From an uncultured bacterium (lineage in GTDB: Bacteria > UBA8248 > JACPRG01 > G963555815): DNA of 64,000 nt. The notes under the pieces were generated by a model that worked only from the letters and a program-made list of their open reading frames with translations, had not been told where the DNA came from and searched no databases. Made by a program: the position numbers and the translations under genes. Each line of letters begins with the position of its first letter. The stretch's first letter is position 1. Shown here piece after piece: positions 16,457 through 56,629 of the stretch. The DNA lies in contig CAYTIB010000114.1 in the NCBI GenBank assembly GCA_964437725.1, forward strand, positions 2,695 to 66,694, in the 5' to 3' direction.

Positions 16457-16924
16457 TTAAGAAATCGACCAGTCGTATTCGGTGAGAGCCTGTTCAGCAT
16501 CGTCCTGAAGCACTCCCCGGGTGATTTCAAGGGATGCGTGCATCTGTTCGGCGAGGTTTTCTGCCGTATATGTTCTACCCGGCACATTTTGAACCTCCGC
16601 TAGTTTTGCGGATCGGGCCCCTATGAACAATCGCTCAATCTGAGCCATCATTATTGCTCCGGCACACATAGGACAGGGGTCGCAGGACGTATAAAGGGTA
16701 CAACCTGCCAAACTTGCAGTCTTCATGTTGACCGAAGCGTCACGAACTGCATTAACCTCCGCGTGTGTGGTTGGATCTCCAGAGGAGTTAACCACATTGA
16801 AGGCTCGTCCAACGATATTCCCATCGCGCACTACGACTGATCCAAAGGGTTGCTCACCATTTCGGAGCCCTTTACGAGCTTCTGCAATAGCCACAGCCAT
16901 AAACTTCTCATGTTCGGTGCTCAT
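16457..16924 (-). CDS. CDA-fold nucleobase deaminase, guanine-deaminase-like, copy 3
   Basis: MSTEHEKFMAVAI… DPTTHAEVNAVR… TLYTSCDPCPMC. Start ATG 16924 is chosen by alignment with copies 2 and 4 and the upstream GGGAAGGGAAGG. The ORF is open to 16939. Confidence 0.85.
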   Translation of the reverse strand: MSTEHEKFMAVAIAEARKGLRNGEQPFGSVVVRDGNIVGRAFNVVNSSGDPTTHAEVNAVRDASVNMKTASLAGCTLYTSCDPCPMCAGAIMMAQIERLFIGARSAKLAEVQNVPGRTYTAENLAEQMHASLEITRGVLQDDAEQALTEYDWSIS

Positions 16925-16954
16925 TCCTTCCCTTCCCATGTTTGAGGTAAAGCA

Positions 16955-17443
16955 TCAGGTTTGCCGAATTTTCGAATCTAGTATCCATTGGTATTTTGCT
17001 AGTACGAGTTCTGCTTCCTCCTGCAGGACACCCCAGATAACTTGGAGGTCCATTTTGTACATTTCAGCAAGCCGGTCGGGATTGTATGTTCGCTCGCCTG
17101 TCTGGCCTCTCAGTTTAACTAGTGTGCTGCCCCGGCCGGCAATAACTAATGTTCCTATCCTGGCGTTAAGGATAGCTCCGCAACACATCGGACAAGGTTC
17201 ACAAGAAGTATATAGAGTGCTGCCTTCGAGGTTCGGAGTTTTCAATCGTACGGAAGTCTCCCTAACTACTTTGGTTTCCGCGTGTGCAGTGGGGTCGAAC
17301 GAAGAATTGACGGTGTTGTAGGCACTTCCGATCACCTCGTCGTCCCGAACGATAGCACTTCCGAATGGGGCCTCCCCACCACTCAGACCCTTGCGGGATT
17401 CCTCGATGGCCATGGCCATAAACTTCTCATGGTTTTCACTCAT
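16955..17443 (-). CDS. CDA-fold nucleobase deaminase, guanine-deaminase-like, copy 4
   Basis: MSENHEKFMAMAI… DPTAHAETKVVR… TLYTSCEPCPMC. ATG 17443-17441 overlaps the TGA stop (17442-17440) of the upstream LLM gene as an ATGA coupling. Confidence 0.85.
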   Translation of the reverse strand: MSENHEKFMAMAIEESRKGLSGGEAPFGSAIVRDDEVIGSAYNTVNSSFDPTAHAETKVVRETSVRLKTPNLEGSTLYTSCEPCPMCCGAILNARIGTLVIAGRGSTLVKLRGQTGERTYNPDRLAEMYKMDLQVIWGVLQEEAELVLAKYQWILDSKIRQT

Positions 17444-18453
17444 GTTGGAGCTCCTTTTTCGCGATTCCATTGTTCTGCCACAAGTCTAAGAGCATGTTTT
17501 CGGCTCTCCGGGGACCCGCGAAGAGCCAGGATGGGAATTTCAAGTCCCGTCTTGAGGTATTCTGATATACGATCGGTTGCCATCTTCGGCGTACCTGTTA
17601 CCGTAAAGGCATGAACGATTTTCTCTGGCAAAAGACGGCGCATGGTTATCCAGTCTTCCTTGACAAGTGCATTATTAACCGCATCGATATCAAGATTCAC
17701 TCCAGTTAGTTCAAGATTTGTCCGTAATCCAGGATTTCGGAGCAAATAGCCGAGCCCCTTTTGCGCTTCAAGGAGAGCGTCTTCGTAATTTTCTGAAATA
17801 GAGGTCATTATTAGACTGGCATATGTGAAGTTCCCCCCATCATTCCCGCTTCTCTTTCGGCCAATCTCGGTTTGTTCCATGGCCCATTCGATGTACTGGG
17901 GTGATACGGATGCGGAGAAAACGACCCCGTCGGATACTTCTCCGGCAAGTTGGCACATCTTCTCGCCGATGGCCGCAAGATAAATAGGAATTGAGGGTCC
18001 TGGAATTTCGAAGTCAATGTGGGCTCCCTTGAGGCTCAAGGTCTCACCGGTGAACTCTACTCGGTTCCTTTTGGCATCCCAAATTTGTCGTATAGAGCAA
18101 ATCATATCCCGCATATGGGCTAGTGGTTTCTTTAAAGGGATCCCCATCTCACGTATCACCTGTGCATTGGCTGTTCCAGCACAGAGAGCTGTGCGGCCTG
18201 GAGCGTACTCCGCTAATGTTGCTACCCCCATCGCCCAAAAAAGGGGATGAGCAACGTAGGGACTAAGTGCGGTAGGTATGACGAGTGTGTTTTTTGTTTC
18301 TGCTAGAAAGGCGATCGATGAAGAAACGGCATCTCGATATCCTAGGTGTTGATCAGCCCAGATGGAATGAAAACCCGCCTCGTCGGCAATTCGGCACATA
18401 TCAACCATGTCGGAGAGCGAAATGCGTCCATCCAAATCGATACCAAGCTTCAT
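17440..18453 (-). CDS. LLM-class (luciferase-like) flavin/F420-dependent oxidoreductase, Mer-like
   Basis: 337 aa from ATG 18453, which has GGAGG 6 nt upstream. It has the typical LLM N-terminus (MKLGIDLDG…AGFHSIWADQHL…) and a TIM-barrel pattern resembling methylene-H4MPT reductase-type F420 enzymes. Confidence 0.75.
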   Translation of the reverse strand: MKLGIDLDGRISLSDMVDMCRIADEAGFHSIWADQHLGYRDAVSSSIAFLAETKNTLVIPTALSPYVAHPLFWAMGVATLAEYAPGRTALCAGTANAQVIREMGIPLKKPLAHMRDMICSIRQIWDAKRNRVEFTGETLSLKGAHIDFEIPGPSIPIYLAAIGEKMCQLAGEVSDGVVFSASVSPQYIEWAMEQTEIGRKRSGNDGGNFTYASLIMTSISENYEDALLEAQKGLGYLLRNPGLRTNLELTGVNLDIDAVNNALVKEDWITMRRLLPEKIVHAFTVTGTPKMATDRISEYLKTGLEIPILALRGSPESRKHALRLVAEQWNREKGAPT

Positions 18454-39409: not shown

Positions 39410-40003
39410 ATGGCCTGGATTTGTACCGTTGATGAATCAAAGGCTGAGGGGCTTCTCAAGGAAAACTATGAAATTCTCAAGAAATCACGAGGGGATATTC
39501 CGAACGTCCACAAAGTCCATAGCATTAAGCCGGAGCTTATGGCGGCCTATCGTGAATTCGGATCTGCCGTAACCTTCGGTGCAACAAGTTTGGGAAGAGA
39601 ACGAGAGGAAATACTCGCCGTGGTTATCTCCGCGTTATTAGGGTGTAAGTACTGAACTGTTTCTCACGGAGAGTTTCTCTGTGATGTTACCTCAGGAGAT
39701 GCAAAATCTAAGGCTATTGCCCTGAAGGAAGATTATCGGAAAGCTGGTCTTACCCCAGCTGATCAAGCAATGGTGGAGTTCGCGGAGAAAATCACTCTCA
39801 AGCCTAGTACCATCGTCTGTTCGGATGTCGAAAATCTACGGACGCATGGATTCGACGATCGGGCCATTCTGGAAATTGTGACAGTTTCGGCCTATCGAAA
39901 TTACATTGCTCGTATAGCCAGTGCCTTGGGAGTAGAGGTTGACGAAAGTATATTTCGCAATGATCCGGAAGTGCGGGCCAGATTGGAAGAGGGACTAGCT
40001 TAG
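39410..40003 (+). CDS. AhpD/carboxymuconolactone-decarboxylase-like peroxidase-related selenoprotein (in-frame UGA = Sec at 39653-39655)
   Basis: Track ORFs 39410-39655 and 39770-40003 share a frame, and TGA 39653 is the only stop between them. Read-through gives 197 codons of continuous CMD/AhpD-like sequence with the TGA at the second Cys of the CxxC motif (GC-K-Y-U-TVSHG). A SECIS-like hairpin follows, and selA/selB are in the window. Confidence 0.8.
39664..39684 (+). promoter_or_regulatory. SECIS-like hairpin for the AhpD-like selenoprotein
   Basis: 8-bp stem (39664-39671 pairing with 39677-39684, one G.U) with apical loop AGUUU (39672-39676). The stem begins 9 nt after the UGA. Confidence 0.6.
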
Positions 40004-48952: not shown

Positions 48953-49966
48953 TTATTGGCCCAGCACTTCTGCAACATCAACAGCACGGCCTTCTTCCGC
49001 TGAACGAGTAGCTGCCACTACTACCGCTAGTGCATTTAAGCCTTCTTCCCCTCCAGTCTCGGGTTTTGATTGAGTTCTGATGCAGTCCGCAAAATGCTCC
49101 AGTTCGTCCTTTACAATGTCCACACCGGGGTATGGTACAGCGACGCGGGCTTCGTCCGTTTCCTTATGGTAGAGACCTTCATACCGATCGTAAAAAAGGT
49201 TACCCATGGTGCTGTAAACGTTGACAAAGTAAGTCCAACGGGGACTAGCAAAGTTACTTCCCACATATCCTTGAACCCCAGACTCGAACTCTACAATGGT
49301 ACTTGTCACATCAGGAATTTCAGCTTTCGTCACCTTTTTTCCCATAAAGGAGGACACCCGAGAAATTGGTCCACCGAGATAATTTAAGGTATCCACGTGG
49401 TGGACACCTAGTTGTGTCAAGGCCCCAGCAGGACTTTCTCCTTTATACCAAAGCCAATCATCCTCCTTGACGGTTATTCCTAGTGGACTGGAGATGTTTG
49501 CATCAATCATCACGAGTTCGCCGAGTTTACCGTTTTCAATCCATTCCTTCTGGACGCGGTGTCCACCGAGGCGCCTTGAGCTGTGGCCGACCATCAGTAT
49601 AATTTCCGCCTTTTTACAGGCGGCAATTACCCGATGACTCTCTTTAATGTCATTTGTGATGGGTTTTTCAACAAACACGTGTTTCCCAGCTTCTGCGGCG
49701 AGAACGGATAGAATTGTGTGAGCGTTGTTCGGGGCGGAAATAATGACCCCTTCAATGTCCTCTCGTCTCAGAATCTCTTCATATGAAGATACCATGTCTA
49801 TTTTATGCTTTTTTGCGCACACCTCCCTTTTTTCTAAGGAACGACTAAAACCCGCAGCAATTTCGATTTTTTCGCTCTTTGCAGCGGCATTTATCAGAAG
49901 TTCACTCCACCTTCCCAGTCCAATCTGTGCAACACGTACTACCCCATTTGATTCTGCTGTTCCCAT
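48953..49966 (-). CDS. Gfo/Idh/MocA-family NAD(P)-dependent oxidoreductase
   Basis: 337 aa with an N-terminal Rossmann motif (VAQIGLGRWS…), the EKP block (VFVEKPI), and a C-terminal alpha/beta domain typical of the family. Confidence 0.8.
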   Translation of the reverse strand: MGTAESNGVVRVAQIGLGRWSELLINAAAKSEKIEIAAGFSRSLEKREVCAKKHKIDMVSSYEEILRREDIEGVIISAPNNAHTILSVLAAEAGKHVFVEKPITNDIKESHRVIAACKKAEIILMVGHSSRRLGGHRVQKEWIENGKLGELVMIDANISSPLGITVKEDDWLWYKGESPAGALTQLGVHHVDTLNYLGGPISRVSSFMGKKVTKAEIPDVTSTIVEFESGVQGYVGSNFASPRWTYFVNVYSTMGNLFYDRYEGLYHKETDEARVAVPYPGVDIVKDELEHFADCIRTQSKPETGGEEGLNALAVVVAATRSAEEGRAVDVAEVLGQ

Positions 49967-50012: not shown

Positions 50013-51062
50013 TTATCCGGAAGAAGATGTCTCACCTCTCAGGTGATCATAGCTAACGACTGTAATGGGTTCTTCTCGTCCCTGGCGTAAAAGTTTTATG
50101 CCTTTATCAGGGGTCGTAATACACCCGATCGGCGTAAGGACTGTTCCGGTTTCCTGAAAAACGCGTGTAGCCAGGTTTTCCGACTCATCCGCTCTAGCGG
50201 TCAGAAGTAACTCGTAATCCTCTCCCCCTTGAAGGGCTAATGTGATTGGATCGCGATTCCATGATTTGGCAACGCTTCGTAGGGCATCTGAAATAGGAAA
50301 CTGCTCACAATGAAGAAGAACTCCGGTGTTGCTAGCCTGGCAAAGGTGTGAAACATCTCCGGAGATACCGTCACTTAAATCGATCATTGCTGTTGCCATC
50401 TTAGATCTTGAAATGGATTGTCCCTCAAGGACGCGGGGAGTTGGTAGGAGAAATGCGTCGACAAGGGGTTTGATGTTGCTAGAAAGGGCCTCGGTTTTCT
50501 CCAGTTTTTTCGGTTCACTATCGTATAAGAGCCGAAAACCTGCCGTTGCATCTCCAAGCGTACCCGTGACCATCAGAACATCACCGGGCTGTGCTCCCGA
50601 TCGGAGAAGGGTAAGGCTTGGATCCGACTCTCCCAACAAATGCACGTCTAAGACCATTGCATTGGCTGAGCGCGAAATATTTCCACCCACAATAGTCGTT
50701 TGGTGTTTCTCACCCTCCTCTCTGAGTCCATCGTAGATACTTTCCAGATATTCTGTTGGCGTTCCCTCGTGAATAGCGATGGAGATTAGCGCATACTTTG
50801 GGTAGCCGCCCATGGCAGCAATGTCGCTGATATTAATGGCCAACGCTTTTTGTCCGAGTTGCTTGGGGGTAGCGTGCTTTTGGAGGAAATGTTCGCCTTC
50901 AACCATCGCATCACTTGTTGCCAACACACAGCGACCCTGGGTGAAGGCTAGCCCCGCACAGTCATCCCCATTTGGGAATATAATCCCTTCGCTAGTCTGT
51001 GGCCCGAGGCGTTTTTTTAAACGGCTTATTAGGCCAAACTCTCCAATGTCTGATAAATGCAC
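50013..51062 (-). CDS. thiL: Thiamine-monophosphate kinase
   Basis: 349 aa. AIR-synthase-related fold with the ThiL N-terminus (IGEFGLISRLKKRL…GDDCA…, …DISD.AAMGG.P…GGN.S…). Confidence 0.8.
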   Translation of the reverse strand: MHLSDIGEFGLISRLKKRLGPQTSEGIIFPNGDDCAGLAFTQGRCVLATSDAMVEGEHFLQKHATPKQLGQKALAINISDIAAMGGYPKYALISIAIHEGTPTEYLESIYDGLREEGEKHQTTIVGGNISRSANAMVLDVHLLGESDPSLTLLRSGAQPGDVLMVTGTLGDATAGFRLLYDSEPKKLEKTEALSSNIKPLVDAFLLPTPRVLEGQSISRSKMATAMIDLSDGISGDVSHLCQASNTGVLLHCEQFPISDALRSVAKSWNRDPITLALQGGEDYELLLTARADESENLATRVFQETGTVLTPIGCITTPDKGIKLLRQGREEPITVVSYDHLRGETSSSG

Positions 51063-52381: not shown

Positions 52382-52528
52382 CATGAAAAAGCGCGATATT
52401 GCGCCTCCCGGAATGAACTATTCAACTAATAATTAAGTAAGATTGTTATGATTTCTTGGGTATGGTGAAAGATTATATGTAACTGCCTTCATACTCGTCC
52501 GGGAAATACTGTTTCGGGAGATTTGAAA

Positions 52529-53212
52529 ATGTTCGATAGAAACCATTTTTTGCCCAGACCTCCTGGTCCCCTTTTTGGTCTTTGGTCCTGGAGGTACTTA
52601 AATAAATTCAAGACCTTAAAGTTGGTAAGTAGTAAGAGGGTTAAATCGTTTTATGAAAAATTCAAAAATCTCTATCCACCTGGGTCGAAGTTCCCAACGG
52701 TTGAGCTGAAAACCTCAGATGGACATGTGGTCAAAACCTCAGATTTTCTTGGCAAAAAACATTTCGTTCTTTTTACAGGGGCGATCACTTGACCACCATT
52801 CCGGCGACAGTTGTTGCCTATGGAAGAATTGAAAACGAAATATATGGGAAGAGACGTAGAATTCTTTGCAATGTATGTTCGCGAACCGCATGCTGGCGAA
52901 AATTGGTTTAAACAATTTCGTAATCACGAAAGTTATGAGCATAAACGCGAGGTTGCTGAGGAGTTGGTCCAAATCAAAAATTTGACGATTGCTGTTCTCG
53001 TGGACAGAATTGACGAGAAATACCACGGGTTACTTGGAAATTTGCCGAATTTCTGCTATGTGGTGAACAAACAAGGGTTTGTGGAATACAAGGCGACCTG
53101 GTTACTTGCTGATGCGGTAGATGAGGTTTTAGCGGAGATGGTAACCAGGGACGACCCTACTCAGCCTATCAAAAAAACATTGGACACCTCAGGCGTTGGA
53201 ACGGAAATCTGA
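52529..53212 (+). CDS. Iodothyronine-deiodinase-like thioredoxin-fold selenoprotein (in-frame UGA = Sec at 52790-52792)
   Basis: Track ORFs 52523-52792 and 52811-53212 share a frame, and TGA 52790 is the only stop. Read-through gives …HFVLFTGAIT-U-PPFRRQL…VEFFAMYVREPHAGENW…. This matches the deiodinase active-site signature (FGS.T-U-PPF … F..IYI.EAH..DGW). A SECIS-like hairpin follows. ATG 52529 is preceded by GGGAGA. Confidence 0.85.
52796..52823 (+). promoter_or_regulatory. SECIS-like hairpin for the deiodinase-like selenoprotein
   Basis: Inner 6-bp stem 52803-52808 / 52813-52818 (one G.U) with apical loop AGUU (52809-52812). Outer stem CCAT/ATGG at 52796-52799 / 52820-52823. The loop lies about 17-20 nt after the UGA. 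Confidence 0.6.
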
Positions 53213-53251: not shown

Positions 53252-55177
53252 TTATTTTTTGCGGAGTACCCGATTGTCACCGACACGCATAGTGAAACGA
53301 GTCGAGTCAAGATGCTCAAGTAACGGAATCGCATGCTTTCTTGTAATACCGAGCAAGTCCCGGAACCCTGACGCGGAGATCTCATTTTTCTCTTTAAGAA
53401 ATGTTGTCAAAGAATCTTTTATGCTTTCCAGGGTTTCTTGGTGATAAAGCAAGTCGTCCTTTACCCGAATCAAAATTCCTTCGCTGACCAGAACCTGAAT
53501 AATTTCTCGGTCTTTCTTATTTGTAATTCCGAGTTTTTCACAGGCCTCGTCAAGCTTCGGGGGTTGATATCCGGACCCTCGGTATAATTGGTCAATTTCA
53601 TCACGTAGTTTGAGCTGATCAGCGACCAGGCTGACTTCATGGCTTGCAAGTCTCACGATTTCCCCGTCGACCACGACCCCCGTTTTCCCGACTTCTTTCA
53701 AAAGGGTTCCAAAAACCTTTTCTGGCACATTTGGAAGGCGGCTTCGAAGCTCTTCCTTTGGGAGCCCTGGGCGGAGGGGGTTCTCGCGGTGAAAATGGTC
53801 AAGGTAGTCATGGACCGTGGATTGTAATATCCCTAAGGCCTCCTGATGGACTGACCATCCTGACGGACTATCGACCCAGATGACTGTACCTTCCTTTTCG
53901 AAATTAGCCAATATCTCTATCAGGTCTTTACGCCCGGTTGCGGTTCGAGGAAGAAGGTCGCATTGAGGTATCCCACTAGACCCTGCCTCATGTAGGAAGA
54001 GACGCACTCGGGCGGCATCATCGGCTTTGTCCAATGCCTCAAACCGTTTCGAAACTTCCGGTCGCATTCGCCGGTGTTTGGGAGGATGACTATCAAGGAT
54101 TTTTCCTCCACTGATGGTGGTAACGGGTGAGTATGACCGAAGTACATAGCGATCTTCCGGACGAACCACGACCGGTCGCTCCAGGCGAAATTGTGCGTAT
54201 CCAGATTCCCCCGGTTGAAGGCGGTCCGTTCCGATTAATGCTACCCTTCCGATGGCCTCAACGGTCCCCTGATGAAAGCGTATTCGATCCCGATTTTTTA
54301 GAGGTCTCGGTGAATTAGGCAGGTGTTGCAGGGTCGCGTCGACCATATAGGAAGGTGCTAAGCTATCTGGGGCAGCCAGGACATCACCTCGCTCCACAGT
54401 CTCTTTGTCTTGTCCTTGGAGATTGATAGCTGTGCGCTGCCCGGCAGTTGCTTCTTTGACATTTTCCCCGTGTACCTGAAGACCTCGTACTCGGGCAGTG
54501 ATGTTCTTTGGATGGAGTATGACTCGCTCATCTAGGTGGACTCTACCGGAAAACAAAGTTCCTGTTACAACCATACCAAATCCTCGCATTGTAAATACAC
54601 GGTCGATAGGAAGGCGAAAGGGGCTGTCCTCATTCCTAACCCCAACATCAGCTGCCCGTATTGCAAGGGCGGATCTGATAGCATCCACGCCCTCACCCGT
54701 TTGTGAGGAGACCGGGATGATGGGCTTATTCTCTAGAAAAGAGTCACTAAGAAATTCATGTACATCTTCCGTTACCAGCTCCAGCCATTCCTCATCGACC
54801 AGATCCTTTTTCGTCAGCGCCACAATGCCATCTCGAATATCGAGTAGTTGGCAGATTGCAAGATGTTCACGCGTTTGTGGCATTACCCCCTCGTCGGCCG
54901 CTATCACAAACATAACTAGATCGATTCCCCCAGCTCCTGCCAACATATTCCGAACAAAACGTTCGTGACCGGGAACGTCGACTACTCCGGCCCGGACGTT
55001 GCCCGGTAGGTCTAGGGAAGCGAACCCCAGGTCGATCGTAATCCCTCTCTCCTTTTCTTCTTTGAGGCGGTCCGTGTTTACACCCGTCAAAGCTTGCACA
55101 AGTGCAGTTTTTCCATGATCGATGTGACCGGCAGTACCTAGAACGACCTGTTTCAAGGCAATCTCCGTTGGATGCAC
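53252..55177 (-). CDS. selB: Selenocysteine-specific translation elongation factor SelB
   Basis: 641 aa with an EF-Tu-like GTPase ([23 protein letters not shown]) followed by long C-terminal winged-helix domains typical of bacterial SelB. It lies immediately downstream of selA. Confidence 0.9.
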
Positions 55178-55201: not shown

Positions 55202-56629
55202 CTAACGTGCCAGCTCTTCGCTTATAGATTCGAGGGCAGCCAGAATATCATGCTCTTCGTTTTGGAAGACAGTTCGCAAATCTAAGAGAAGCAGATCCTC
55301 TTGAATCCGACCAATAATAGGAGGATCAAAGGAGCGGAGTTGCGCTTCGGTTTTCTTGATATCTATTTTCGATATGGGATCTGGACTTATAGCGATGAGT
55401 GCCGTTGGGATTTCCTCTGTTGGCAGAGTTCCACCGCCTGCGCGAGAGCTCCCCGAGATGACACTAGGTCGGAGTTGCTTTGTGGCACGGGTAGAAAGCT
55501 TGGACAAGAGAGAGACCGCACGGTCCCGGACATCTGCTTCAGTTGTCGATAGAAAAGCGATGCTCGGTATTTTGTCAGTTACAGATTGTGGATCCAAATG
55601 TGCCAAAAGGGTTTCTTCGAGAATTGACAAGGACAGCTTATCAAGACGCAAAGCCCTCATTAGCGGGTGCTCTTTTGCTAGATCTGTACATTTGCGATCT
55701 CCTGCAAAAATACCTGCTTGGGGTCCACCGAGAAGTTTATCACCACTGAAAGTGACGAGGTTGGCTCCCTGCCCGAGAATGTCTGATGGGGTTTTCTCCT
55801 TTATGACTCCCAACTTTTTGAGATTCGTTATGTATCCACTTCCTAAGTTCACCATGAAAGGGATCTTATGCTTTCGGCCAAGCTGTGCAAGATCTCGAAT
55901 GCTGACCTCCTCTGTAAACCCCACGATACGGTAATTGCTAGTGTGAACTTTCAACAAAAGGGCAGTGTTTTCCCCTATGGCGTTTGCGTAGTCCATTAGG
56001 CGGGTTTTGTTGGTAGTACCCACTTCATGAAGAATGGCGCCACTTTGTCGCATTACTTCCGGAATGCGAAATCCTCCTCCAATTTCGACCAGTTCACCCC
56101 GAGAGACTATTACTTCTTTTCCTGTGGCTAAAGCCGCAAGGCAAAGTAGGACGGCTCCAGCATTATTATTTACAGCCCCAGCGGATTCTGCTCCGGTTAG
56201 TCGTTGCACTAGCTGCTCAATGGCGGAATCCCGTTGGCCTCTTTTGCCATTTTCTAGATCGAACTCCAGGTTGGAATAGCCTCCGGCGACTTCTGTAGCT
56301 CGCTTCAAGATATCGGTTCCTAAAGGGGCCCTCCCGAGATTTGTATGGAGGACTACACCGCTTGCGTTTACCACTTTCCGAAGTTTTGGCGTCAGAGTTT
56401 CCTGGAGCCGGACCAGTGCTTCGTTTGCGATCTTTTCCGGAGACATATCGATCTCTGATGTGTCTTGAGCTTCGAGAATTGTTTTTCGGTGGTGGGCTAG
56501 TGTTTCGCGCACGCAGTCAGTTGCAGTTTTTTCCGGAAGATCATGGATAGGTTTCTTACGTAGAACTTGAAGTACTTCATCAACAGAGGGTAGTTCCTGG
56601 AGCTCTTTTTGTGTTCCTTTTTTTTTCAT
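55202..56629 (-). CDS. selA: L-seryl-tRNA(Sec) selenium transferase SelA
   Basis: 475 aa with SelA blocks (…VVNASGVVLHTNLGRAPL…, NNNAGAVLL, the PLP-Lys region FSGDKLLGGPQAG). ATG is followed by an A9 run. Confidence 0.9.
   Translation of the reverse strand: MKKKGTQKELQELPSVDEVLQVLRKKPIHDLPEKTATDCVRETLAHHRKTILEAQDTSEIDMSPEKIANEALVRLQETLTPKLRKVVNASGVVLHTNLGRAPLGTDILKRATEVAGGYSNLEFDLENGKRGQRDSAIEQLVQRLTGAESAGAVNNNAGAVLLCLAALATGKEVIVSRGELVEIGGGFRIPEVMRQSGAILHEVGTTNKTRLMDYANAIGENTALLLKVHTSNYRIVGFTEEVSIRDLAQLGRKHKIPFMVNLGSGYITNLKKLGVIKEKTPSDILGQGANLVTFSGDKLLGGPQAGIFAGDRKCTDLAKEHPLMRALRLDKLSLSILEETLLAHLDPQSVTDKIPSIAFLSTTEADVRDRAVSLLSKLSTRATKQLRPSVISGSSRAGGGTLPTEEIPTALIAISPDPISKIDIKKTEAQLRSFDPPIIGRIQEDLLLLDLRTVFQNEEHDILAALESISEELAR

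What the first reader, a model, noticed from the sequence alone, without database searches (positions are those of the whole stretch)
52523..53212. Deiodinase-like selenoprotein hidden behind an in-frame TGA, next to selA-selB
**Seen in the sequence**
- The two track ORFs 52523-52792 and 52811-53212 are in the same frame (52811-52790 = 21).
- The only stop between them is TGA at 52790-52792.
- Read-through yields one 227-aa thioredoxin-fold protein with …KKHFVLFTGAIT-[UGA]-PPFRRQLLPMEELKTKYMGRDVEFFAMYVREPHAGENWF….
- A stem-loop follows: inner stem 52803-52808/52813-52818, apical loop AGUU, outer stem 52796-52799/52820-52823.
- The gene is convergent with selB, and their ends are only 40 nt apart.

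**Established knowledge**
- Vertebrate iodothyronine deiodinases carry the active site FGS(C/A)T-U-P(P/S)F, followed about 25 residues later by (D/E)F-x-x-IYI-x-EAH-x-x-DGW. Both blocks are recognisable here, with Sec at the same place.
- Bacterial SECIS elements are hairpins just 3' of the UGA with G/U in the apical loop.

**Inference**
- This is a genuine Sec-containing deiodinase-family reductive enzyme in a bacterium, and standard gene callers would split or truncate it.
- From memory, deiodinase-like Sec proteins were listed in marine metagenome selenoproteome surveys, but no bacterial member has an established substrate. Reductive dehalogenation of organohalogens or a peroxiredoxin-like role are both possible.
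Basis: partly seen in the sequence, partly recalled or inferred. Interest (0 to 1): 0.8.

Follow-up and report, generated by a model that had tools for sequence, protein, structure and literature searches.

The report
Bacterial deiodinase-like selenoprotein gene
A 227-codon bacterial gene that looks broken by a TGA stop codon almost certainly reads that codon as selenocysteine; it is a correctly spotted but mis-annotated member of the "deiodinase-like" selenoprotein family, known from metagenomes since 2005, whose substrate is still unknown.

Summary
ORFs 52523-52792 and 52811-53212 share a frame, are separated only by TGA 52790-52792, and are followed by the hairpin described.

Comparative evidence shows that the TGA encodes selenocysteine:
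- 79 of 80 related loci, from about 9 phylum-level labels, have TGA (never TAA or TAG) at the same aligned codon, with conserved protein on both sides. The 80th is truncated by a transposase insertion.
- Full-length homologues carry Cys in that column.
- The hairpin meets all four published bacterial SECIS criteria. It stays paired in 98.6-99.6% of cells, shows compensatory changes, and lies over the strongest synonymous-site conservation in the gene.
- selB and selA lie next door.

Family assignment: the read-through protein passes Pfam T4_deiodinase. Its family profile hits mouse Dio3 at E=4.5e-26. It keeps the T-U-P-P-F active site and five of the six proposed proton-relay residues. It lacks the membrane anchor and the resolving Cys, and probably the thyronine clamp.

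The family was described in 2005 and is still listed as uncharacterised in 2026. The substrate remains open (dehalogenation or peroxide/thiol redox). A second hidden selenoprotein, AhpD-like with a CxxU motif, sits at 39653.

The parts
52516..52521 (+). Shine-Dalgarno-like GGGAGA, 7 nt upstream of the ATG start
   Evidence: Read directly from the sequence. Function is inferred.
52529..53212 (+). Complete deiodinase-like selenoprotein gene: 227 codons including Sec88, with the true stop TGA at 53210-53212
   Evidence: Single in-frame TGA. The N-terminus and Sec position 88 are conserved in relatives. Pfam PF00837 scores 46.6 bits against a GA of 27, covering residues 20-183. The family profile hits Dio3 at E=4.5e-26.
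52790..52792 (+). UGA codon read as selenocysteine (Sec88), in the motif G-A-I-T-U-P-P-F
   Evidence: TGA is at the aligned codon in the window and in 79 of 80 related loci, and is never TAA or TAG. Cys occupies this column in full-length homologues. It aligns with the active-site Sec (crystallised as Cys) of Dio3 and Dio2.
52796..52823 (+). Bacterial SECIS hairpin: outer stem 52796-52799/52820-52823, inner 6-bp stem 52803-52808/52813-52818, apical loop AGUU 52809-52812
   Evidence: MFE structure, -12.1 kcal/mol. It meets all four bSECIS criteria quoted in PMC13188914. The stem is paired in 99.6% of cells in the window's clade and 98.6% in a second clade, where compensatory changes occur at 3 of 6 pairs. 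Loop positions G21 and U23 are invariant in 65 sequences. The lowest synonymous-site diversity of the gene falls at codons 85-101.
53252..55177 (-). selB, the selenocysteine-specific elongation factor that binds the SECIS; convergent with the selenoprotein gene
   Evidence: TIGR00475 scores 374 bits (cutoff 242). Pfam finds the GTP_EFTU, SelB-wing_2 and SelB-wing_3 domains.
55202..56629 (-). selA, the L-seryl-tRNA(Sec) selenium transferase, upstream of selB on the same strand
   Evidence: TIGR00474 scores 560.7 bits (cutoff 268). Pfam SelA hits at E=4e-140.

Best explanation
52529-53212 is one gene for a cytoplasmic, 227-residue selenoprotein of the deiodinase-like branch (Pfam PF00837) of the thioredoxin/peroxiredoxin-fold superfamily.

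Decoding. During translation, the UGA at 52790 is read as selenocysteine. The hairpin that starts 10 nt downstream (6-bp stem, AGUU loop, 16 nt from UGA to loop) acts as a bacterial SECIS. It recruits SelB-GTP-Sec-tRNA(Sec); SelB and SelA are encoded immediately next door. This part is shown by comparative sequence evidence.

Chemistry. This part is inferred. Sec88 lies in T-U-P-P-F at the N-terminus of helix alpha1, the same position as the catalytic Sec of animal deiodinases. It is backed by the same hydrogen-bond/proton-relay residues: T87, Y116, E119, H121 and H133, equivalent to Dio3 T169, Y197, E200, H202 and H219.

The selenolate would attack an electrophilic atom of the substrate, and the relay would supply the proton. 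The resulting Se-X or Se-OH intermediate must be reduced by an external thiol (thioredoxin or a low-molecular-weight thiol). The clade has no conserved second Cys, so this is a '1-Sec' enzyme.

Substrate. The substrate is not thyroid hormone. The thyronine clamp and the membrane anchor are missing. My estimates, conditional on the gene being a working selenoprotein, are:
- about 0.3 for reductive dehalogenation of a halogenated aromatic compound;
- about 0.45 for a peroxide, sulfenate or disulfide type substrate;
- the rest for something else.

The confidence given (0.88) is for the core claim: a genuine Sec-decoded gene of the deiodinase-like family that works as a single-Sec redox enzyme. 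It does not cover the choice of substrate.
For: - Single in-frame TGA, with a coherent thioredoxin-fold protein on both sides.
- In the window and in 79 of 80 related loci, whose record titles carry about 9 phylum-level labels, the aligned codon is TGA and the flanking protein is conserved. The one exception, L004, is cut by a transposase-like insertion.
- An exhaustive HMMER search found 323 relatives. Most of the 30 full-length ones I retrieved and read have Cys in the Sec column; a few have Ser or Gly.
- SECIS: all four consensus criteria are met. The hairpin persists although the encoded peptide differs between clades (RRQLL, RRQVP, VGEVSP, RRSVEP, LGQVAP).
- Stem pairing is 99.6% and 98.6% in the two clades. 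In the second clade, pair 15:30 occurs as G-C, C-G and A-U through paired synonymous third-position changes, and 0 of 500 shuffles reach the covariation score.
- The window itself carries a compensated A18-U25.
- Synonymous entropy is 0.35 in the SECIS codons against 0.67 elsewhere (p=0.007), the lowest region of the gene.
- Across the family, hairpins are more stable than synonymous recodings: mean z=-1.6, and 27 of 64 fall at or below the 5% tail.
- selB, with its SECIS-binding winged-helix domains, and selA are adjacent.
- Family: PF00837 is the best and longest Pfam hit. Dio3 and Dio2 are the top PDB sequence hits: single sequence 2e-8 and 9e-6; profile 4.5e-26 and 6e-19, against 4e-14 for the best non-Dio protein, which aligns only to the first ~70 positions.
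- The relay residues are invariant or nearly invariant in the family alignment. Their roles are taken from PMC11592359.
- There is no TM segment, and the only Cys (C176) is not conserved.
Against: - There is no direct evidence of selenium incorporation.
- tRNA(Sec) and selD are not in the 64-kb window.
- For the window sequence alone the hairpin energy is unremarkable. In its own clade most stem variation is G-C to G-U, which does not exceed shuffles.
- The single-sequence Pfam margin over Redoxin and AhpC-TSA is small (46.6 against 40.6 and 36.1 bits).
- The score for the NCBIfam 'deiodinase_rel' model is far below its cutoff.
- A structure model could be made only for a Cys-form relative that is 32% identical. 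Its Foldseek ranking puts ResA/TlpA slightly ahead of Dio3 and Dio2.
- Ser167 of the relay is Ala in the window's clade.
- Loop-D is shorter than in Dio3: 11 against 16 residues between the two His.
- The near-invariant R118 has no counterpart in animal Dio. The active-site chemistry may therefore differ.
- The gene neighbourhood gives no consistent functional clue.
Confidence: 0.88

Rival explanations
1. It is a genuine selenoprotein, but functionally a peroxiredoxin/TlpA-like thiol-dependent peroxidase or thiol-disulfide oxidoreductase. It has no dehalogenase activity, and the deiodinase resemblance reflects shared ancestry only. This rivals only the substrate-level part of the best explanation.
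For: - Redoxin (40.6 bits) and AhpC-TSA (36.1 bits) also pass their Pfam cutoffs.
- Foldseek of the family model ranks ResA/TlpA first, with 1-Cys Prx, Bcp and GPx structures also matching.
- Dio itself is described as peroxiredoxin-like (PMC11592359).
- The 2005 authors proposed a generic redox role (PMC1088965).
- R118 is nearly invariant next to the active site.
- The protein is cytoplasmic and has no thyronine clamp.
Against: - The Prx signature PxxxTxxC is absent. Thr directly precedes Sec, as in Dio.
- There is no CxxC or UxxC in this clade.
- The non-Dio PDB hits align only to the first ~70 profile positions, at an E-value 12 orders of magnitude weaker than Dio3.
- The Dio-specific Tyr-Glu-His...His relay is conserved.
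Confidence: 0.45
2. The TGA is an ordinary stop. The locus holds two small independent genes, or a truncated N-terminal product plus an internally initiated C-terminal product, as current annotations imply.
For: Gene callers annotate the halves separately. The hairpin energy of the window sequence alone is not significant. No tRNA(Sec) is in the window.
Against: - The stop is TGA in the window and in 79 of 80 related loci, with no drift to TAA or TAG, at one exact codon inside a conserved active-site motif.
- Neither half is a complete thioredoxin fold on its own, and the Pfam and PDB alignments run across the stop.
- Cys forms are single polypeptides.
- The hairpin covaries, and synonymous sites are constrained there.
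- The Sec machinery is adjacent.
Confidence: 0.03
3. It is a pseudogene or an assembly error: a former Cys codon (TGC/TGT) mutated or mis-called to TGA in this contig.
For: Metagenome assemblies contain errors. One relative (L004) is indeed disrupted.
Against: The same TGA appears in 79 independent assemblies from many phyla and studies. The rest of the gene is intact and conserved. The L004 disruption is a transposase insertion elsewhere in the gene, not at the TGA.
Confidence: 0.01

Closest known systems
Prokaryotic 'deiodinase-like' selenoproteins (Pfam PF00837). Zhang, Fomenko and Gladyshev 2005, Sargasso Sea (PMC1088965); GOS survey 2008 (PMC2398784); reviews in 2022 and 2026 (PMC9312934, PMC13188914).
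   Same: - Bacterial, with Sec encoded by an in-frame UGA and a bacterial SECIS directly downstream.
- Cys-containing homologues exist.
- Assigned to PF00837.
- Function unknown.

This is the family the gene belongs to.
   Different: - The review tables give the redox motif as UxxC. This clade reads U-P-P-F/Y and has no conserved second Cys. A CPPC form does exist among the Cys homologues (P0078).
- This clade has its own conserved N-terminus (PPGPLxGxWSWRYLN) and a fixed length of 227-230 residues.
- I could not retrieve the published example sequences, so I could not test whether they fall in the same subclade.
Vertebrate iodothyronine deiodinases Dio1-3 (structures 4TR3/4TR4 for Dio3 and 9H48 for Dio2)
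   Same: - Active-site T-U-P-P-F in a beta1-alpha1 position.
- The Y-x-x-E-x-H block about 28 residues later, and the second relay His.
- Best sequence match among all solved structures.
- 28% identity over 144 residues.
- Pfam gathering score passed.
   Different: - No N-terminal transmembrane anchor.
- No equivalent of the resolving Cys: Dio3 C239 aligns with I154.
- The Arg275/Lys241 carboxylate clamp is probably replaced by the near-invariant W191. This rests on ungapped extrapolation only.
- Ser167 is Ala85.
- Loop-D is 5 residues shorter.
- The SECIS lies inside the coding region and is of the bacterial type, not in the 3'UTR.
- The window's clade is not closer to animal Dio than other bacterial clades are.
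TlpA/ResA-type thiol-disulfide oxidoreductases and 1-Cys/atypical peroxiredoxins (Pfam Redoxin, AhpC-TSA)
   Same: Same thioredoxin-fold architecture. Both Pfam models pass their cutoffs. These are the top Foldseek matches for the family model.
   Different: There is no CxxC and no PxxxTxxC motif. The sequence similarity is confined to the N-terminal half of the domain.
E. coli fdhF SECIS (the textbook bacterial SECIS; recalled from my own knowledge)
   Same: A hairpin shortly after the UGA, with a small apical loop carrying G followed by U. Several clades of this family have the same GGUC loop closed by A-U. The spacing is about 10-11 nt from the UGA to the minimal stem.
   Different: The stem sequence is unrelated. 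No bulged U is evident. SelB binding has not been tested.

Membership tests
Bacterial SelB/SECIS-dependent selenoprotein gene | An in-frame UGA inside a conserved coding region, conserved as UGA in orthologues | tested here: met
   TGA is at the aligned codon in the window and in 79 of 80 related loci, with conserved protein on both sides.
Bacterial SelB/SECIS-dependent selenoprotein gene | Cys-containing homologues aligning at the UGA position | tested here: met
   Cys occupies the Sec column in most of the 22 full-length homologues aligned; 3 have Ser and 2 have Gly.
Bacterial SelB/SECIS-dependent selenoprotein gene | bSECIS consensus: 3-9 nt loop, 4-16 bp stem, G in the first two loop positions, 16-37 nt from UGA to loop, MFE <= -7.5 kcal/mol (PMC13188914) | tested here: met
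   The loop is AGUU (4 nt, with G second and followed by U), the stem is 6 bp, the spacing is 16 nt, and the MFE is -12.1 kcal/mol. The bSECISearch program itself was not available.
Bacterial SelB/SECIS-dependent selenoprotein gene | Evolutionary conservation or covariation of the hairpin beyond what coding constraints explain | tested here: met
   98.6-99.6% of cells are paired. Compensatory changes occur at 3 of 6 pairs in the Binatia-type clade, and 0 of 500 shuffles reach the score. In the window's clade covariation is weak, but synonymous-site diversity is lowest there.
Bacterial SelB/SECIS-dependent selenoprotein gene | Sec-insertion machinery in the genome (selA, selB, selC, selD) | tested here: inconclusive
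   selA and selB are adjacent. No tRNA(Sec) or selD is in the 64-kb window: ARAGORN and Rfam are negative, and the AIRS-domain ORF is ThiL. The rest of the genome is not available.
Bacterial SelB/SECIS-dependent selenoprotein gene | Selenium actually incorporated into the full-length protein | not testable with these tools
   This needs 75Se labelling or mass spectrometry.
Iodothyronine deiodinase family (Pfam PF00837 T4_deiodinase) | Score above the Pfam gathering threshold | tested here: met
   46.6 bits against a cutoff of 27, covering residues 20-183 and profile positions 48-212 of 237. It is the best and longest of three clan hits.
Iodothyronine deiodinase family (Pfam PF00837 T4_deiodinase) | Catalytic Sec in the motif (S/A)-x-T-U-P-P-F, at the homologous position | tested here: met
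   GAIT-U-PPF aligns with GSCT-(U/C)-PPF of Dio3 and GSAT-(U/C)-PPF of Dio2.
Iodothyronine deiodinase family (Pfam PF00837 T4_deiodinase) | Proposed proton-relay residues (Dio3 Ser167, Thr169, Tyr197, Glu200, His202, His219; PMC11592359) | tested here: met
   T87, Y116, E119, H121 and H133 align and are invariant or nearly invariant in the family. Ser167 is Ala85 in this clade and Ser in the Binatia-type clade. Five of six are met.
Iodothyronine deiodinase family (Pfam PF00837 T4_deiodinase) | Dio-specific insertion (loop-D) between the two relay His residues | tested here: inconclusive
   The region is present and alignable but shorter: 11 residues between H121 and H133, against 16 in Dio3 and 7 in the Binatia-type clade. 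The Foldseek comparison of a relative's model does not separate Dio from ResA/TlpA.
Iodothyronine deiodinase family (Pfam PF00837 T4_deiodinase) | N-terminal transmembrane anchor | tested here: not met
   The maximum Kyte-Doolittle 19-residue mean is 0.81, and there is no hydrophobic N-terminal segment. Some Cys-form homologues do have one.
Iodothyronine deiodinase family (Pfam PF00837 T4_deiodinase) | Resolving or distal Cys (Dio3 Cys239) and the thyronine carboxylate clamp (Dio3 Arg275 / Dio2 Lys241) | tested here: not met
   C239 aligns with I154. The only Cys, C176, is not conserved. R275 lies just beyond the aligned block, and ungapped extension places the near-invariant W191 there. That step is an inference.
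Iodothyronine deiodinase family (Pfam PF00837 T4_deiodinase) | Reductive deiodination or dehalogenation activity | not testable with these tools
   No bacterial member has been assayed, according to the 2026 review.
NCBIfam NF038285 'deiodinase_rel' (347-aa deiodinase family protein) | Score above the curated cutoff | tested here: not met
   73.8 bits against a cutoff of 250. The match covers only profile positions 181-324. This is a related family, not the same one.
Peroxiredoxin (AhpC-TSA / Redoxin) | Pfam threshold, and the PxxxT/SxxC peroxidatic motif | tested here: not met
   The Pfam cutoffs are passed (40.6 and 36.1 bits), but the hits cover only part of the domain. The motif is absent: Thr is adjacent to Sec, and there is no Pro four residues before it.

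The most novel reading that the evidence does not exclude
This single-Sec, Cys-free, cytoplasmic clade is a true bacterial reductive dehalogenase that uses the deiodinase mechanism. The selenolate abstracts the halogen as X+, and the conserved Thr-Tyr-Glu-His-His relay protonates the ring. The substrates would be natural iodo- or bromo-aromatics. That would be a third, cofactor-free class of bacterial reductive dehalogenase, beside the corrinoid RdhA enzymes and the flavin-dependent iodotyrosine deiodinases. It would also give a prokaryotic model for deiodinase chemistry.
Probability: 0.2. Interest if true: 0.75.

Novelty: new member of a known kind. Interest (0 to 1): 0.35.

Why it matters
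- Annotation: the window's product and its relatives sit in public databases only as ~130-aa fragments that are unnamed or labelled 'hypothetical'. The Sec forms of this family are therefore missed by routine annotation and by any analysis built on it.
- Scale of the family: the comparative set assembled here (79 intact Sec loci across many phyla, plus Cys forms) shows a widespread, strongly conserved enzyme. It retains the deiodinase proton-relay network but none of the thyroid-hormone-specific features.
- Open question: the function of the family has been unknown for twenty years. This clade is small, soluble and single-Sec, has no other conserved Cys, and carries a compact SECIS. That makes it a convenient candidate for the first biochemical test.
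- Limit: nothing here changes what is already known in principle.

Tried and rejected
I used the exact C-terminal ORF for HMMER and folded a Cys-form relative instead.
- The resulting Foldseek search did not discriminate Dio from ResA/TlpA. I do not use it as support for family membership.
- The single-sequence hairpin energy is not significant (z=-1.09). The synonymous-recoding control is also not significant for the window alone (0.15).
- One column-based structure for all clades fails, because the hairpin register shifts by 1 nt between clades, and by about 4 nt in L052 and L070. I therefore counted pairs per clade.
- Rfam found nothing in the region at gathering or permissive thresholds. 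ARAGORN found no tRNA(Sec).
- I considered that the AIRS-domain ORF at 50013-51062 might be selD and rejected it. It is ThiL (TIGR01379, 267.6 bits, against selD at 62 bits with a cutoff of 125).
- The source organism could not be named. The nearest relatives are Nitrospinota and Nitrospiraceae MAGs.
- Neighbourhood analysis found mostly lineage-specific synteny and no family-wide operon partner.
- The idea that the window's clade is the closest bacterial relative of animal deiodinases is rejected. It ranks 63rd of 150 against Dio3.
- A scan for further TGA-bridged ORFs returned 61 candidates. All but one are noise or ordinary gene boundaries.
Full report
**1. Observation**

Translating 52523-53212 in one frame gives one internal stop, TGA at 52790-52792, inside ...KKHFVLFTGAIT*PPFRRQLLPMEELKTKYMGRDVEFFAMYVREPHAGENWF....

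The most likely start is ATG 52529, seven nucleotides after a GGGAGA. This gives 227 residues with the recoded position at residue 88. That N-terminus (M...PPGPLxGxWSWRYLN...) and position 88 recur in relatives.

- inner stem 52803-52808/52813-52818;
- loop AGUU;
- outer stem 52796-52799/52820-52823;
- energy -12.1 kcal/mol.

Downstream, on the other strand, lie selB (53252-55177; TIGR00475, 374 bits) and selA (55202-56629; TIGR00474, 561 bits). The gap to selB is 39 nt.

The hairpin's energy alone is not better than chance. Its z-score is -1.09 against dinucleotide shuffles, and 15% of synonymous recodings of the same peptide fold as well. The case therefore rests on comparative data.

**2. 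The TGA is a sense codon**

The 5.8-billion-protein database holds the window's own product and all close relatives only as ~130-residue C-terminal fragments. In one Nitrospiraceae MAG the two halves are annotated as separate hypothetical proteins.

Using an alignment of those fragments, I retrieved 80 genomic loci from one-genome-per-species contigs. Their record titles name Nitrospinota, Acidimicrobiia, Verrucomicrobiota orders, Tectomicrobia, Methylomirabilota, Acidobacteria, Binatia, deltaproteobacterial groups, Chloroflexota and Planctomycetota.

Extending each match upstream in frame shows the following:
- 79 of 80 loci have a stop at exactly the aligned codon, inside G-[AS]-[ILVFY]-T-*-[PA]-P-[FY].
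- The protein is conserved on both sides.
- The codon is TGA every time (80 of 80 counting the window).

Real terminators would drift among the three stop codons and would not sit inside an active-site motif.

The single exception, L004, is a copy whose N-terminal half has been replaced by a transposase-like ORF.

An exhaustive HMMER search with the exact C-terminal ORF found 323 relatives. Many are full-length proteins of 220-300 residues. In the ones I retrieved and aligned, most have Cys in the Sec column (for example AAMTCPPARAQ, GCSTCPPFVNS, GSITCPPCV), and a few have Ser or Gly. This is the classical Sec/Cys pair criterion.

**3. The hairpin is a SECIS**

A 2026 review states the bacterial SECIS consensus (PMC13188914): a 3-9 nt apical loop on a 4-16 bp stem, G in one of the first two loop positions (usually followed by G or U), 16-37 nt between UGA and loop, and MFE <= -7.5 kcal/mol. 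The window hairpin has a 4-nt AGUU loop, a 6-bp stem, 16 nt of spacing and an MFE of -12.1 kcal/mol. All four criteria are met.

A 6-bp stem with a 4-nt loop (AGUU, AGGU or GGUC) lies in nearly the same place in almost every locus. It is shifted by 1 nt between clades and by about 4 nt in two loci. It persists although the encoded peptide changes: RRQLL, RRQLS, RRQVP, VGEVSP, RRSVEP, LGQVAP. Loop nucleotides G21 and U23, counted from the U of UGA, are invariant in 65 distinct sequences.

Pair counts per clade:
- Binatia-type clade: 98.6% of cells are paired, and 3 of 6 pairs carry changes on both sides. Pair 15:30 occurs as G-C, C-G and A-U through paired synonymous third-position changes. None of 500 shuffles reaches the covariation score.
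- Window's clade: 99.6% of cells are paired, but most variation is G-C to G-U and does not exceed shuffles. The window itself carries one of the two compensated A18-U25 pairs.

As an independent test in the window's clade, I measured synonymous-codon diversity at conserved residues. Codons 89-97 average 0.35 against 0.67 for the rest of the gene (Mann-Whitney p=0.007). The six lowest 9-codon windows of the whole gene all fall between codons 85 and 101. Arg93 is CGG in 42 of 44 sequences, Gln94 is CAG in 44 of 44, and Pro96 is CCG in 32 of 32.

Across the family, the hairpins are more stable than synonymous recodings (mean z=-1.6; 27 of 64 at or below the 5% tail).

Together with an adjacent selB that has its SECIS-binding winged-helix domains, I regard Sec decoding as established as far as sequence analysis can take it.

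Not shown: tRNA(Sec) and selD are absent from the window. The AIRS-domain ORF at 50013-51062 is ThiL, not SelD.

**4. What kind of protein it is**

With U replaced by C, the protein hits three Pfam families, all above their cutoffs:
- T4_deiodinase: 46.6 bits (cutoff 27), residues 20-183. This is the best and by far the longest hit.
- Redoxin: 40.6 bits.
- AhpC-TSA: 36.1 bits.

Against all PDB sequences, the top two hits are mouse Dio3 (4TR3, E=2e-8) and mouse Dio2 (9H48, E=9e-6).

A profile of 13 Sec and 22 Cys/Ser/Gly family members hits Dio3 at 4.5e-26 over about 140 positions and Dio2 at 6e-19. The best non-deiodinase proteins (ResA/TlpA-type) reach only about 4e-14 and align only to the first ~70 positions. 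BLASTP gives 28% identity over 144 residues with Dio3.

Residue mapping onto the published proton-relay model (PMC11592359):

| Dio3 residue | Window residue | Note |
|---|---|---|
| Thr169 | T87 | |
| Sec170 | U88 | |
| Tyr197 | Y116 | invariant in the family alignment |
| Glu200 | E119 | invariant in the family alignment |
| His202 | H121 | invariant in the family alignment |
| His219 | H133 | |
| Ser167 | A85 | Ala in this clade, Ser in the Binatia-type clade |

Features specific to the vertebrate enzymes are missing:
- There is no hydrophobic N-terminal anchor.
- Dio3 Cys239 aligns with Ile154, and the only Cys (C176) is not conserved.
- By ungapped extension, the position of the Arg275 carboxylate clamp is occupied by the near-invariant Trp191. 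This step is an inference.
- The loop between the two relay histidines is 11 residues rather than 16.
- A near-invariant Arg118, in Y-V-R-E-P-H, has no counterpart in Dio.

The protein is far below the cutoff of the NCBIfam 'deiodinase_rel' model (73.8 against 250 bits), so it belongs to a sister family.

The structure tool would not accept the read-through sequence. I therefore modelled a Cys-form relative, P0078 (32% identical; core pLDDT about 83-95). Foldseek ranks ResA/TlpA structures marginally ahead (E about 6e-12, query TM 0.46) of Dio3 (rank 18, 9e-11, TM 0.50, the longest alignment) and Dio2 (rank 29, TM 0.52). The fold confirms a Prx/TlpA/Dio-type thioredoxin fold but does not discriminate within it. 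P0078 also has a CPPC motif, unlike the window protein.

**5. Mechanism**

Shown: this is one gene, UGA is decoded as Sec through a coding-region SECIS, and the product is a deiodinase-family thioredoxin-fold protein with Sec at the catalytic position.

Inferred: a selenolate at the helix alpha1 N-terminus attacks an electrophilic atom of the substrate while the Thr-Tyr-Glu-His-His network handles the proton. Because the clade has no second conserved Cys, the oxidised Se-X or Se-OH form must be recycled by an external thiol system.

The substrate cannot be determined here.
- For dehalogenation: the Dio-specific relay is retained, and the Prx and CxxC motifs are absent.
- For a generic peroxide or thiol redox role: the Prx-like architecture, the extra Arg118, the cytoplasmic location, the lack of a substrate clamp, and the original authors' own suggestion (PMC1088965).
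- My estimates are roughly 0.3 for dehalogenation, 0.45 for a peroxide or thiol role, and the remainder for something else.

The gene context does not help. The selA-selB adjacency and the upstream M48 peptidase/ThiL synteny are confined to the closest relatives (L001, L002, L004). The only cross-lineage recurrence is a GFO/IDH/MocA oxidoreductase near the gene, sometimes with an SDR immediately downstream.

**6. Comparison with what is known, and novelty**

Bacterial Sec- and Cys-containing 'deiodinase-like' proteins (Pfam00837) were reported from the Sargasso Sea in 2005: 4 Sec and 6 Cys sequences, with bacterial SECIS elements and a proposed redox role (PMC1088965). They were found again in the GOS data, with 22 Sec sequences (PMC2398784). 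The 2022 and 2026 reviews list them among selenoproteins whose functions 'remain largely' unknown.

The gene is therefore a new member of a known kind. Modest additions from this work:
- The review tables give the motif as UxxC, whereas this clade is U-P-P-F/Y with no partner Cys, as in animal deiodinases.
- The family is much more widespread than the early marine surveys could show.
- The Sec forms are still split in deposited annotations.

The window's clade is not specially close to animal deiodinases. It ranks 63rd of 150 family members by score against Dio3.

**7. Verdict**

- Observation: confirmed.
- Novelty: new member of a known kind.
- Interest: 0.35. This is a clean, correct call of a known but uncharacterised selenoprotein family, not a surprise to specialists.
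- Most novel reading not excluded: this clade is a cofactor-free, Sec-dependent bacterial reductive dehalogenase (probability about 0.2).

In passing, I found a second hidden selenoprotein gene in the same window. It is an AhpD-like protein with a C-K-Y-U motif and TGA at 39653-39655. It scores 113.9 bits on TIGR01926 (cutoff 81.8) with the match spanning the TGA, and a 10-bp hairpin with a GUU loop follows.

Noticed in passing
window 39410-40003 (+), TGA at 39653-39655: A second TGA-interrupted gene. Read-through gives ...ILAVVISALLG-C-K-Y-U-TVSHGEF (CxxU...H). With U replaced by C it scores 113.9 bits on NCBIfam TIGR01926 'peroxidase-related enzyme' (cutoff 81.8), with the match spanning the TGA, and 32.6 bits on Pfam CMD. 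A 10-bp hairpin with a GUU loop starts about 8 nt after the UGA (MFE -13.2 kcal/mol). This matches the known AhpD-like CxxU selenoprotein family.
   Followed up: partly
window 48953-49966 (-); also, for example, L008:4612-5607, L010:4590-5606, L019:3424-4581: A GFO/IDH/MocA-family NAD(P) oxidoreductase lies within 6 kb of the deiodinase-like gene in 29 of 80 loci, in three lineages and in different arrangements. In Acidimicrobiia it is divergent and about 100 nt away. In Nitrospinaceae it is about 1.1 kb upstream. In the window it is about 2.5 kb upstream. In L010, L013 and L016 an SDR-family gene follows the selenoprotein gene with 0-8 nt spacing. This may be a functional link or just synteny; I made no background statistics.
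   Followed up: partly
L004:5500-6010: In this close relative (same M48/ThiL/selB/selA synteny) the N-terminal half of the selenoprotein gene is replaced by a transposase/integrase-like ORF. The gene has been disrupted by a mobile element.
   Followed up: partly
window 16460-17485 (-): Two tandem paralogous CMP/dCMP-deaminase-like genes lie in the same frame, separated by a single TGA. Both start MS(E/T)(N/E)HEKFMA(M/V)AI... This is an ordinary gene boundary and not a selenoprotein.
   Followed up: partly
window 53210-53212: The true terminator of the selenoprotein gene is also TGA. The same codon is therefore read as Sec at 52790 and as stop at 53210. The difference is the presence of the SECIS hairpin after the first one.
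   Followed up: no
Cys-form homologues P0031, P0046, P0063, P0077, P0090, P0106: One subgroup of Cys/Ser-form homologues (motif AAMT[CS]PPAR) has an N-terminal hydrophobic segment or signal-like sequence and a long N-terminal extension. P0063 has several predicted membrane helices. The family thus has both soluble Sec forms and membrane-anchored or exported Cys forms.
   Followed up: no
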